Made by a program: the position numbers and the translations under genes | Shown: positions 12,084 to 12,221 of the stretch, piece after piece | Layout of the letters: every line of letters starts with the position of its first letter | Numbering within the stretch: position 1 is the stretch's first letter | The notes under the pieces: model-generated | Database searches by the model: none | What the model was told of the DNA's origin: nothing | What the model saw: only the letters and a program-made list of their open reading frames with translations | Sequence record: MW481326.1 | DNA from: Escherichia phage vB_EcoM-Pr103Blw | Length of the DNA stretch: 64,000 nt | Direction: 5' to 3' (one strand)

Positions 12084-12221
12084 TATCTTTGTAGATAAGT
12101 TATTAAGCTTACCTGTGAGTATGCGACCACAAAGGGTGAATGGGTAAATTCTAGATTTAAACCCAAAAAGGCACATCGCTACAGACCTTAAGCAAGTCTG
12201 GGTAGCTTATCTACAAAGATA
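12084..12221 (+). ncRNA. structured element bounded by a perfect 16-bp inverted repeat (TATCTTTGTAGATAAG / CTTATCTACAAAGATA)
   Basis: Perfect 16-nt complement separated by about 106 nt containing inner hairpin CAGACC-ttaagcaa-GTCTG; small RNA or MITE-like element. Confidence 0.45.

What the first reader, a model, noticed from the sequence alone, without database searches (positions are those of the whole stretch)
12084..12221. Element bounded by a perfect 16-bp inverted repeat inside the tRNA array
TATCTTTGTAGATAAG (12084-12099) and its exact reverse complement CTTATCTACAAAGATA (12206-12221) flank about 106 nt containing an internal hairpin CAGACC-ttaagcaa-GTCTG. A 16-bp perfect stem is unlikely by chance in AT-rich DNA. 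It could be an RNase III-type processing hairpin, a long-stem small RNA, or a miniature inverted-repeat element.
Basis: seen in the sequence. Interest (0 to 1): 0.55.

Follow-up and report, generated by a model that had tools for sequence, protein, structure and literature searches.

The report
Conserved long-stem RNA beside phage Y-RNAs
The inverted repeat is the stem of a conserved ~145-nt structured RNA in the tRNA cluster of Felix O1-like phages, sitting next to tRNA-mimicking "Y RNA"-like genes and a Ro60-like protein gene, so it is most likely one more partner RNA of that little-studied phage system, not a mobile element.

Summary
The repeat is real and longer than reported: 19 perfect bp (12081-12099 with 12206-12224), or 24 bp counting G-U pairs. 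The window is a Felix O1-like phage.

**Conservation.** About 240 relatives carry the element once, at the same site, in two sequence versions. Their interiors differ, but the stem is kept by compensatory changes and a matched 1-nt deletion. G-U pairs place the RNA on the + strand. It is not a MITE: no other copies, none in 5,426 E. coli genomes.

- The gene at 9546-10961 folds like Ro60.
- The element directly abuts a YrlA-type tRNA mimic (11943-12083).
- Three shorter Y-like modules lie upstream.
- A model of the mimic finds counterparts beside Ro60-like genes in distant phages.
- The element's inner hairpin H3 carries a minimal copy of that family's signature.
- A sister genus lacks the Ro60-like gene, the modules and the hairpin together.

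**Best reading (about 0.5).** It is a lineage-specific Y-RNA-like non-coding RNA, cut out of the tRNA-array transcript by RNase P and probably RNase III. No expression or binding data exist.

The parts
12081..12104 (+). P1, 5' arm of the long stem. 12081-12099 is perfectly complementary to 12206-12224. 12100-12104 is a G-U-rich extension.
   Evidence: Covariation at alignment pairs 4:148, 12:140, 19:133 and 24:128, plus a matched indel at 15:137.
12201..12224 (+). P1, 3' arm. 12206-12224 is the perfect part. GUAG at 12202-12205 can instead pair with CUAC at 12179-12182, which extends H3.
12107..12140 (+). H1 region. This is the variable interior, unrelated in sequence between versions v1 and v2. 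Its structure is not established.
12142..12164 (+). H2 hairpin. The apical sequence AUUCUAGAUU is invariant in v1 and v2 (loop UUCUAGA at 12149-12155). The lower stem differs between versions and covaries within v2.
   Evidence: (pairs 61:99, 63:97 and 66:94 change on both sides).
12179..12205 (+). H3 hairpin, CUAC-AGAC-CUUAAGCAA-GUCU-GG-GUAG. It is a minimal copy of the Y-like module signature (AG-helix-UUNCAGCAA...helix-CUG). The G-C pair changes to A-U in Moogle-type phages.
   Evidence: (pair 109:125, GC:11 and AU:9).
11943..12083 (+). Adjacent YrlA-type tRNA mimic (module 4). Parts: outer pairs UUAC 11945-11948 / GUAA 12079-12082; closing helix 11952-11959 / 12070-12077; CUAU; V arm 11983-11999; T arm 12004-12020; closed 7-bp acceptor-like stem 12021-12038; D arm 12041-12055. 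Its 3' end overlaps P1 by 2-3 nt.
   Evidence: (96% paired; acceptor-like helix has 3 pairs changed on both sides). Architecture as described for YrlA in PMC4201824.
11858..11937 (+). Short Y-like module 3: GAGC-AGA-AGACCGA...UUGGUCU-G-GCUC, with no tRNA-like domain.
11462..11534 (+). Short Y-like module 2.
   Evidence: 51 bits, matches only the closing-helix parts of model R1.
11295..11376 (+). Short Y-like module 1.
   Evidence: 38 bits.
9546..10961 (+). Ro60-like protein gene (471 aa; Pfam DUF2828 + DUF7788), the presumed protein partner.
   Evidence: pLDDT 87; Ro60 2i91_A E 1.2e-8, TM 0.66; Rsr 2nvo; phage Ro60 9l5y. Bas63 gp130 in PMC11482910.
12229..12304 (+). tRNA-Lys(UUU). Its RNase P site would define the 3' end of the released RNA, 4 nt after P1.
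   Evidence: The processing step is inferred.

Best explanation
The inverted repeat is helix P1 (19-24 bp) of a ~145-nt structured non-coding RNA encoded on the + strand of Felix O1-like phages.

**Structure.** P1 closes a junction with three inner hairpins:
- H1 is variable.
- H2 has an invariant UUCUAGA apex.
- H3 is a minimal copy of the signature helix and motif found in the phage's Y-RNA-like modules.

**Setting.** The RNA lies 1.1 kb downstream of, and on the same strand as, a Ro60-like protein gene. It directly abuts a YrlA-type tRNA mimic.

**Most likely function.** It is a lineage-specific member of the set of Y-RNA-like partner RNAs of that Ro60-like protein. H3 would be the protein-binding site.

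**Proposed biogenesis.** It is transcribed as part of the tRNA-array precursor from the promoters at about 10980 and 11072. RNase P cutting at tRNA-Lys would free its 3' side. Host RNase III cutting in P1 would probably separate it from the upstream mimic.

**Shown here:** the conserved structure, the strand, the single fixed locus, the genomic association with the Ro60-like gene and Y-like modules, and the signature in H3.

**Inferred:** transcription, the processing enzymes, binding to the Ro60-like protein, and any role in the anti-defence activity reported for the Bas63 homologue.
For: **Structure**
- The fold is far more stable than shuffles, z = -6.05.
- P1 is 97% paired in 20 distinct sequences against 28-47% for slid controls. 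Changes on both sides occur at 4:148, 12:140, 19:133 and 24:128, with a matched 1-nt deletion at 15:137.
- H2 and H3 also covary.

**Strand**
- Many G-U pairs are present.
- Model R2 scores 140 bits on + and 39 bits on -.

**Conservation**
- Version v1 is in about 183 records and v2 in 60, one place each. That compares with 252 records whose Ro60-like gene is at least 80% identical.

**Context**
- The upstream protein is Ro60-like by fold. It is homologous to mycobacteriophage 'Ro-like RNA binding protein'.
- The adjacent module has the YrlA architecture of V, T, closed acceptor-like stem and D.
- Model R1 of that module finds full-length same-strand matches beside Ro60-like genes of distant phages: L065 at 68 bits, L110 at 58 bits, Klebsiella phage at 60 bits, mycobacteriophage BigCheese at 44 bits.

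**Signature in H3**
- The signature AG-helix-UUNCAGCAA...CUG is defined on 24 modules.
- A pattern scan recovers modules 1-4 plus H3, against 1.95 hits per 128 kb in shuffles.

**Co-absence**
- Erwinia phage phiEa21-4, in the same subfamily, lacks the Ro60-like gene, the modules and the hairpin together.

**Precedent**
- Species with a YrlA also have a second, long-hairpin Y RNA.
- In M. smegmatis both come from one precursor (PMC4201824).
Against: - There is no expression, end-mapping or binding data for any Felix O1-like phage.
- The hairpin is not found next to Ro60-like genes outside this phage group. It is therefore not a general part of the system.
- The published Rsr-binding motif GNCGAAN0-1G is absent from v1. 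It is present in only two of ten v2 sequences (GCCGAAG).
- The H3 helix is only 4-5 bp, so the signature match is short. One Moogle-type change replaces the otherwise conserved G-C pair.
- Co-absence in phiEa21-4 could be a single block deletion or insertion and need not reflect functional coupling. Only 45 kb of that 84.6-kb genome was checked for the protein.
- ESCO49 keeps the hairpin but has lost the adjacent tRNA mimic, and SP116 has lost the hairpin. Neither is essential for plaque formation.
- The covarying positions reflect few independent events, mainly the v1/v2 split plus fBSPA4-type against Moogle-type.
Confidence: 0.5

Rival explanations
1. It is purely a processing stalk. P1 is an RNase III site whose only role is to separate the upstream tRNA mimic from the tRNA-Lys precursor. 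The interior has no function of its own.
For: - The helix is 19-24 bp, uninterrupted and AU-rich.
- It sits exactly between two RNAs that need defined ends.
- P1's base, AUCUUU...AAAGAUAAU, recurs in a second hairpin that ends right before tRNA-Arg.
Against: - The interior motifs are invariant (H2 apex) or covarying (H3, H2 stem) across v1 and v2, while neighbouring interior sequence is replaced.
- Other tRNA junctions in the array do without such a stalk.
- RNase P alone suffices for tRNA 5' ends (established knowledge).
Confidence: 0.2
2. It is an independent phage small RNA unrelated to the Ro60-like protein, for example a regulator or decoy. It would be comparable to the stable species 1 and 2 RNAs encoded in the T4 tRNA cluster.
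For: - The structure is conserved and on the + strand.
- It is restricted to one phage lineage, whereas Ro60-like genes are widespread.
- It lacks the published Rsr-binding motif.
- ESCO49 keeps it without the adjacent mimic.
Against: - H3 carries the Y-like module signature.
- The element directly abuts the YrlA-type module.
- It is absent together with the Ro60-like gene and modules in phiEa21-4.
Confidence: 0.2
3. It is a DNA-level element: a miniature inverted-repeat transposable element, or a palindromic protein-binding or recombination site.
For: - It has terminal inverted repeats of 19 bp.
- Two sequence versions occupy the same site. fBSPA4-type Felixounaviruses carry the v2 version, which shows recombinational exchange with a junction inside the left arm.
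Against: - There is a single copy per genome at one locus and none in E. coli genomes.
- There is no target-site duplication: the flanks are GGT and TAA.
- Arm changes are compensated through G-U pairs, which only make sense in RNA.
- The deletions in SP116 and ESCO49 are not precise excisions.
Confidence: 0.03
4. It is part of a multi-piece tmRNA-like system. The tRNA mimic would supply the tRNA-like domain, the hairpin would take the place of the pseudoknot region, and the downstream tag-like RNA (ANDNVFLAVA**) would supply the message.
For: - ARAGORN calls a permuted tmRNA in Mijalis that spans these parts.
- Gene order matches two-piece tmRNA genes.
- Moogle-type modules encode G-CCA after the 3' acceptor strand.
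- The tag frame is conserved with synonymous changes.
- Rfam tmRNA_permuted gives 28.9 bits, mainly on the tag.
Against: - Three tRNA genes and a separate promoter lie between the mimic and the tag.
- No version has the G3:U70 pair.
- The hairpin interior is no more similar to E. coli ssrA than shuffles are.
- phiEa21-4 keeps the tag RNA without the mimic or hairpin.
- The Rfam score is below the gathering score and uses the T arm of tRNA-Ile.
Confidence: 0.04

Closest known systems
Long-hairpin bacterial Y RNAs (S. Typhimurium YrlB, M. smegmatis YrlB, D. radiodurans Yrn2; PMC4201824)
   Same: - It is a second, long-stem non-coding RNA encoded beside a tRNA-mimicking YrlA.
- It is near a Ro60 homologue and on the same strand.
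- It is probably made from a common precursor.
   Different: [quoted passage not shown] This one closes a three-hairpin junction of about 95 nt.
- It lacks the GNCGAAN0-1G motif in v1.
- The partner protein is a divergent Ro60-like family (DUF2828/DUF7788), not a TROVE-annotated Rsr.
- Binding is untested.
YrlA tRNA-mimic Y RNAs (applies to the adjacent module at 11943-12083, not to the hairpin)
   Same: - It has the same order of elements: V, T, closed acceptor-like stem and D arms inside a closing helix.
- The YUAY sequence precedes V.
- The acceptor-like stem is 7 bp, as in the M. smegmatis YrlA that RNase P cleaves.
- It is encoded next to a Ro-like gene.
   Different: - The conserved single-stranded motif is UUNCAGCAA, not GNCGAAN0-1G.
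- It is embedded in a tRNA gene array.
- It has no Rfam match.
RNase III processing stalks (rRNA operon stems flanking 16S and 23S; phage T7 early RNA sites). Own knowledge.
   Same: A long helix, formed by sequences flanking a structured RNA within a polycistronic stable-RNA precursor, is long enough for RNase III.
   Different: - Cleavage has not been shown.
- The enclosed RNA is small and of unknown function.
Stable species 1 and 2 RNAs (rnaC, rnaD) of the phage T4 tRNA gene cluster. Own knowledge.
   Same: They are non-tRNA stable RNAs encoded inside a phage tRNA cluster and released by tRNA-processing enzymes.
   Different: - No sequence or structure similarity was tested or is known.
- T4 has no Ro60-like gene next to its cluster, as far as I know.

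Membership tests
Y RNA (Ro60/Rsr partner RNA) | Encoded close to, and on the same strand as, a Ro60 homologue | tested here: met
   The hairpin starts 1.1 kb after the stop of ORF 9546-10961 and is on the same strand. The ORF's model matches Ro60, Rsr and a phage Ro60 over its full length.
Y RNA (Ro60/Rsr partner RNA) | The 5' and 3' ends pair into a stem that closes a large internal loop | tested here: met
   P1 is 19-24 bp and closes a ~95-nt junction. It is conserved with compensatory changes.
Y RNA (Ro60/Rsr partner RNA) | Conserved Ro60-binding motif (GGUCCGA in animals; GNCGAAN0-1G or CGAA in bacteria and phage phiLo) | tested here: not met
   The motif is absent from v1. Only L007 and L017 among v2 sequences read GCCGAAG; the others read GCCGAUG. 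Instead, H3 carries the phage-family signature AGAC(C)-CUUNAGCAA-(G)GUCUG.
Y RNA (Ro60/Rsr partner RNA) | Physical binding to the Ro60 protein | not testable with these tools
   This needs RIP, CLIP or EMSA.
Y RNA (Ro60/Rsr partner RNA) | Match to a curated Y RNA covariance model | tested here: not met
   No Rfam match up to E = 10 for 12075-12230.
YrlA tRNA mimic | T arm, closed acceptor-like stem and D arm, in that order | tested here: not met
   The hairpin interior has none of these. The neighbouring module at 11943-12083 does have them.
RNase III substrate | About 20 bp or more of uninterrupted double-stranded RNA | tested here: met
   There are 19 Watson-Crick pairs plus 5 further pairs including G-U, with no bulge in v1.
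RNase III substrate | Staggered cleavage in the stem in vivo that depends on rnc | not testable with these tools
   This needs end mapping in wild-type and rnc mutant hosts.
MITE / mobile inverted-repeat element | Multiple copies at different loci | tested here: not met
   One copy in the window. One place per record in about 243 phage records. None in 5,426 E. coli genomes.
MITE / mobile inverted-repeat element | Target-site duplication and clean empty sites | tested here: not met
   The flanks GGT and TAA are not a duplication. The SP116 deletion runs from T arm to T arm and also removes part of tRNA-Lys. The ESCO49 deletion removes the neighbour, not the element.
tmRNA (considered for the interior and the neighbourhood) | Sequence or structure similarity to tmRNA, and a G3:U70 alanine identity pair in the acceptor stem | tested here: not met
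   The hairpin against E. coli ssrA scores 25, and shuffles score 24.2 +/- 3.6. The acceptor-like stems read G-C/U-G/C-G, G-U/G-U/C-G or G-C/A-U/A-U. The Rfam tmRNA models are below threshold and lie elsewhere.
Intrinsic terminator | GC-rich stem followed by a U run | tested here: not met
   No terminator-like site is called at 12081-12240. The stem is AU-rich and the tail is AAUUUAAUGG.
tRNA | Cloverleaf recognised by ARAGORN or Rfam RF00005 | tested here: not met
   No call within 12081-12224. The UUCUAGA loop fits an anticodon-loop pattern, but nothing else is tRNA-like.

The most novel reading that the evidence does not exclude
The hairpin RNA is the lineage-specific effector or specificity subunit of an anti-defence ribonucleoprotein. 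The Ro60-like protein is the homologue of Bas63 gp130, which counters the 'ppl' defence. It would bind H3, and the long duplex together with the exchangeable interior (H1 and the H2 stem) would engage or decoy a host nuclease or defence sensor. The two allelic versions, v1 and v2, which are swapped by recombination within otherwise near-identical phages, would then reflect an arms race acting on an RNA.
Probability: 0.12. Interest if true: 0.8.

Novelty: new variant of a known kind. Interest (0 to 1): 0.55.

Why it matters
**The open question.** Ro60-like proteins occur in at least 709 sequenced phages, often in or beside tRNA arrays. One of them, Bas63 gp130 from a Felix O1-like phage, was recently found to counter a bacterial defence system. 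Its RNA partners were only guessed at: the authors suggested that 'some tRNA genes are possibly Y RNAs' (PMC11482910).

**What this locus supplies.** It gives concrete candidates in a tractable E. coli/Salmonella phage:
- one YrlA-type tRNA mimic;
- three short Y-like modules;
- the long-stem RNA of the finding.

It also gives a sequence-structure signature, AG-helix-UUNCAGCAA...CUG, that finds such RNAs in distant phages.

**Consequences.** The question of what phage Ro60 proteins bind and do becomes directly testable. In addition, about 430 nt now left blank, or annotated as hypothetical proteins or a dubious intron-containing tRNA-Thr, should be re-annotated as RNA genes. The hairpin alone, without that context, would be a modest curiosity.

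Tried and rejected
1. **tmRNA-like interior.** By eye I thought the hairpin interior resembled the 5' end of E. coli tmRNA. Local alignment against the real ssrA is no better than shuffles, so I rejected this.
2. **Permuted tRNA gene.** I first read the neighbouring piece as a circularly permuted tRNA gene needing circularisation, through a permuted group I intron or an RNA ligase. There is no intron-like match. The YrlA architecture explains the order without any ligation.
3. **Anticodon stem.** I considered ACGGU-CUGGUAA as half of a tRNA-Thr(GGU) anticodon arm. The same closing helix occurs in modules with no tRNA parts and covaries, so it is the module's closing helix.
4. **Amber-suppressor-like cloverleaf** (loop UUCUAGA). 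No tRNA finder or model supports it.
5. **Protein coding.** Mechanical ORFs overlap the region. However, 1-nt and 2-4-nt indels among close relatives, and the unrelated v1 and v2 interiors, rule out a conserved frame.
6. **A third version in Erwinia phage phiEa21-4.** The by-eye similarities did not survive alignment, folding or the model.
7. **A comparable hairpin after the modules of distant phages.** None was seen by folding or with model R2.
8. **Rfam.** No match for either the hairpin or the mimic beyond a partial tRNA hit.
9. **Literature.**
   - No transcriptome of a Felix O1-like phage was found.
   - The supplementary phage list of Chen et al. is not held.
   - Genome announcements only mention an ARAGORN 'ssrA' call.

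Full report
**Observation.** The perfect inverted repeat is 19 bp, 12081-12099 with 12206-12224. It extends to 22 nt at 95% and to 24 pairs when G-U pairs are allowed. It is the longest perfect inverted repeat within 250 nt in the window. Only 3 of 200 shuffles reach 16 bp. The 150-nt RNA folds at -49.2 kcal/mol against -27.9 +/- 3.5 for shuffles, z = -6.05.

**Provenance and setting.** The window is a Felix O1-like phage (Felixounavirus). The best match is Escherichia typing phage 1 at 98%. Twenty-six tRNA genes lie on the + strand at 11128-16353. The element sits in a 430-nt gap between tRNA-Asp (ends 11798) and tRNA-Lys (starts 12229).

**Comparative anatomy of the hairpin.**
- The 430-nt gap is present in 251 phage records.
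- The hairpin exists in two versions. Version v1 (window type) is in about 183 records. Version v2 is in 60 records of Mooglevirus, Suspvirus and some Felixounavirus, one place each.
- The interiors are largely unalignable. The exceptions are the apex AUUCUAGAUU and the 3' inner hairpin.
- The outer helix is collinear between versions. It is kept by changes on both sides at pairs 4:148 (UA/CG), 12:140 (UA/CG), 19:133 (GC/CG) and 24:128 (UG/GC), and by a matched 1-nt deletion at 15:137.
- Over 20 distinct sequences, 97% of cells pair. This falls to 28-47% when partners are slid.
- H2's lower stem covaries within v2. H3 changes G-C to A-U.
- Numerous G-U pairs would be C-A on the other strand. 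A model built from the alignment scores 140 bits on + and 39 bits on -. This is therefore an RNA on the tRNA strand.
- GUAG at 12202-12205 can pair either with UUAU, giving a 24-bp P1, or with CUAC at 12179-12182, giving an extended H3. The data do not decide between the two.
- The independent evolutionary events behind the covariation are few, which limits its weight.

**Not a mobile element, an ORF or a terminator.**
- There is one copy per genome at one locus and none in 5,426 E. coli genomes.
- There is no target-site duplication.
- The deletions in SP116 (T arm to T arm) and ESCO49 are not excisions.
- Mechanical ORFs overlap the region, but indels among close relatives and the unrelated v1 and v2 interiors exclude coding.
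- No terminator-like site is present, and there is no Rfam match.

**What lies next to it.** Directly upstream, overlapping P1 by 2-3 nt, the stretch 11943-12083 contains all arms of a tRNA in a permuted connectivity:
- a closing helix, 11952-11959 with 12070-12077;
- CUAU, then a V stem-loop at 11983-11999;
- a canonical T arm at 12004-12020;
- a 7-bp acceptor-like stem closed by a tetraloop at 12021-12038;
- a D arm at 12041-12055.

This is the architecture published for YrlA, the tRNA-mimicking bacterial Y RNA: V, T, AS and D, with YUAY before V (PMC4201824).

Across 17 distinct sequences the structure is 96% paired, against 42-52% for slid controls. The acceptor-like helix exists in three different sequences:
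- ACUCGGC/GUCGAGU
- ACACGUU/GGCGUGU
- ACCCUUC/GAAGGGU

Moogle-type phages encode G-CCA after the 3' strand. In M. smegmatis, a YrlA with a 7-bp stem is cut by RNase P and receives CCA in vivo. The same fate is plausible here, but this is inferred.

Three shorter modules share the closing helix but lack the tRNA-like domain. They lie at 11295-11376, 11462-11534 and 11858-11937. Their outer pairs covary between copies: UGAC/GUCA, UUAC/GUAA and GAGC/GCUC.

**The protein.**
- ORF 9546-10961 (471 aa) ends 167 nt before the array.
- Pfam sees only DUF2828 and DUF7788, and sequence search of the PDB finds nothing.
- An AlphaFold model (pLDDT 87, pTM 0.88) matches Ro60 over its full length: 2i91_A at E 1.2e-8 and TM 0.66. 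It also matches D. radiodurans Rsr and the Ro60 of Thermus phage phiLo, and after those only vWA domains.
- tblastn finds the family in 709 phage records. These include mycobacteriophage genes annotated 'Ro-like RNA binding protein' (33% identity, E about 1e-70).
- In Klebsiella, Listeria and Campylobacter phages the gene lies within or beside tRNA arrays.
- The Bas63 homologue gp130 was reported as Ro60-like and as a counter to the 'ppl' defence. Its authors only speculated that some annotated tRNAs might be Y RNAs (PMC11482910).

**A family, and its signature.**
- Covariance model R1 of the mimic was searched against 75 loci around Ro60-like genes that are only 39-47% identical. It gave full-length hits, all on the gene's strand: L065 at 68 bits and L110 at 58 bits, plus matches in nine further loci (L055, L066, L085, L113, L114, L068, L047, L107, L041) with rough E-values of 0.0013 or lower.
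- With filters off, it finds a module in the unannotated gap right after the Ro-like gene of mycobacteriophage BigCheese (44 bits). It also finds three to four tandem modules between the gene and the tRNA array of a Klebsiella phage.
- Aligned, the 24 modules share A-G-[4-7 nt]-UUNCAGCAA ... [complement]-C-U-G-NUAA. The helix covaries freely, and the tRNA-like domain may be present or absent.
- This motif differs from the published GNCGAAN0-1G.

**Link between the hairpin and that family.**
- H3 reads CUAC-AGAC-CUUAAGCAA-GUCU-GG-GUAG in v1 and CUAC-AGACC-CUUUAGCAA-GGUCUG-C-GUAG in v2. This is the signature with nothing but the motif in its loop.
- A regular-expression scan for the signature finds modules 1-4 and H3 on the + strand of the array, plus seven scattered weak hits in 128 kb. 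Shuffles give 1.95 hits. A chance hit inside this 145-nt element is therefore unlikely, roughly 0.002-0.008.
- H3 and the H2 apex are the interior parts that survive the v1/v2 replacement.
- The hairpin itself is lineage-specific. Model R2 finds nothing in 80 other loci, and folding downstream of distant modules shows nothing comparable.
- Erwinia phage phiEa21-4, in the same subfamily and with a syntenic tRNA array, has no Ro60-like gene in the 45 kb examined or at the syntenic site. It also has no module, no CAGCAA motif and no hairpin. This co-absence fits a functional unit, but it could also be one indel block.

**Mechanism proposed.**
1. The array is transcribed from the consensus-like promoters at 10980 and 11072.
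2. RNase P cleavage at tRNA-Lys frees the 3' side, 4 nt after P1.
3. The 19-24-bp P1 is long enough for RNase III. Cleavage there would separate the hairpin RNA from the tRNA mimic.
4. The Ro60-like protein binds the signature helix and motif of the modules and of H3.
5. The variable interior and the duplex provide lineage-specific interactions.

Steps 1-5 are all inferred. Only the structures, the conservation and the associations are shown.

The precedent is that bacteria with a YrlA also have a long-hairpin Y RNA, and in M. smegmatis both come from the same precursor.

**Rivals.** The alternatives are a pure processing stalk, an unrelated small RNA, a DNA-level element, and a multi-piece tmRNA-like system. 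Each is weighed in its own section of this report.

**Verdict.** The element is a real, conserved, unannotated structured RNA. It is best placed as a new variant within the Y-RNA world of phage Ro60-like systems, with moderate confidence in that assignment and no direct functional data.

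Noticed in passing
window 12587-12782 (promoter 12552-12580; reading frame 12630-12665): - A near-consensus promoter (TTGACA-17-TATAGT) precedes a ~196-nt RNA between tRNA-Ile and tRNA-Arg.
- It carries a tmRNA-tag-like frame, ANDNVFLAVA**, where the E. coli tag is ANDENYALAA. The two stops sit in a small hairpin loop.
- The frame is conserved with synonymous or stop-to-stop changes across the subfamily. Erwinia phage phiEa21-4 reads ANDAQFLAVA** with 4 synonymous codon changes.
- The following hairpin covaries.
- Part of the RNA matches unrelated Salmonella phages at 77-80%.
- Rfam tmRNA_permuted scores 28.9 bits against a gathering score of 47. No tRNA-like domain was identified for it.
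-.
   Followed up: partly
window 11943-12083: An unannotated YrlA-type tRNA mimic: V, T, a closed 7-bp acceptor-like stem and D arms inside a closing helix. Some records annotate it as a 131-nt 'tRNA-Thr(GGT)' or as hypothetical proteins.
   Followed up: yes
window 11295-11376, 11462-11534, 11858-11937: Three short modules interleaved with tRNA genes. They have the same closing helix and the UUNCAGCAA motif but no tRNA-like domain. They are candidates for YrlB-like RNAs.
   Followed up: partly
window 9546-10961: A 471-aa DUF2828/DUF7788 protein that is Ro60-like by predicted fold. The family is in 709 phage records and often lies in or next to tRNA arrays.
   Followed up: yes
L005 (Citrobacter phage Mijalis) about 832-960; also L016, L019, L035: Moogle-type versions of the tRNA mimic encode G-CCA after the 3' acceptor strand and have a different or absent V arm. 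This is what triggers ARAGORN's 'permuted tmRNA' call and the 'ssrA' mentioned in genome announcements.
   Followed up: partly
window 11828-11858, 15238-15268, 12745-12779: A small family of hairpins with stems around CUUUAAAG and loop GUUCUUACGAG (variant UUUCUAAGAGAG), located in spacers of the tRNA array. One is also present in phiEa21-4. The base of the 12745-12779 hairpin, AUCUUU...AAAGAUAAU, matches the base of P1.
   Followed up: no
window 12149-12155: The H2 apical loop UUCUAGA is invariant in both hairpin versions. It contains the palindrome UCUAGA, which could act as a loop-loop dimerisation site, and it also fits an anticodon-loop pattern with CUA. It is unexplained.
   Followed up: no
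L008 (Salmonella phage SP116) and L009 (Escherichia phage ESCO49): Natural deletions. SP116 lost the stretch from the mimic's T arm to the T arm of tRNA-Lys, including the hairpin. ESCO49 lost tRNA-Asp through the mimic but kept the hairpin. This shows T-arm-mediated recombination, and that both parts are dispensable for propagation.
   Followed up: partly
window 11128-16353: The 26 tRNAs cover 19 amino acids with no tRNA-Trp, whereas phiEa21-4 has one. The large tRNA-free gaps at 14179-15000 and 15428-16180 were not examined.
   Followed up: no
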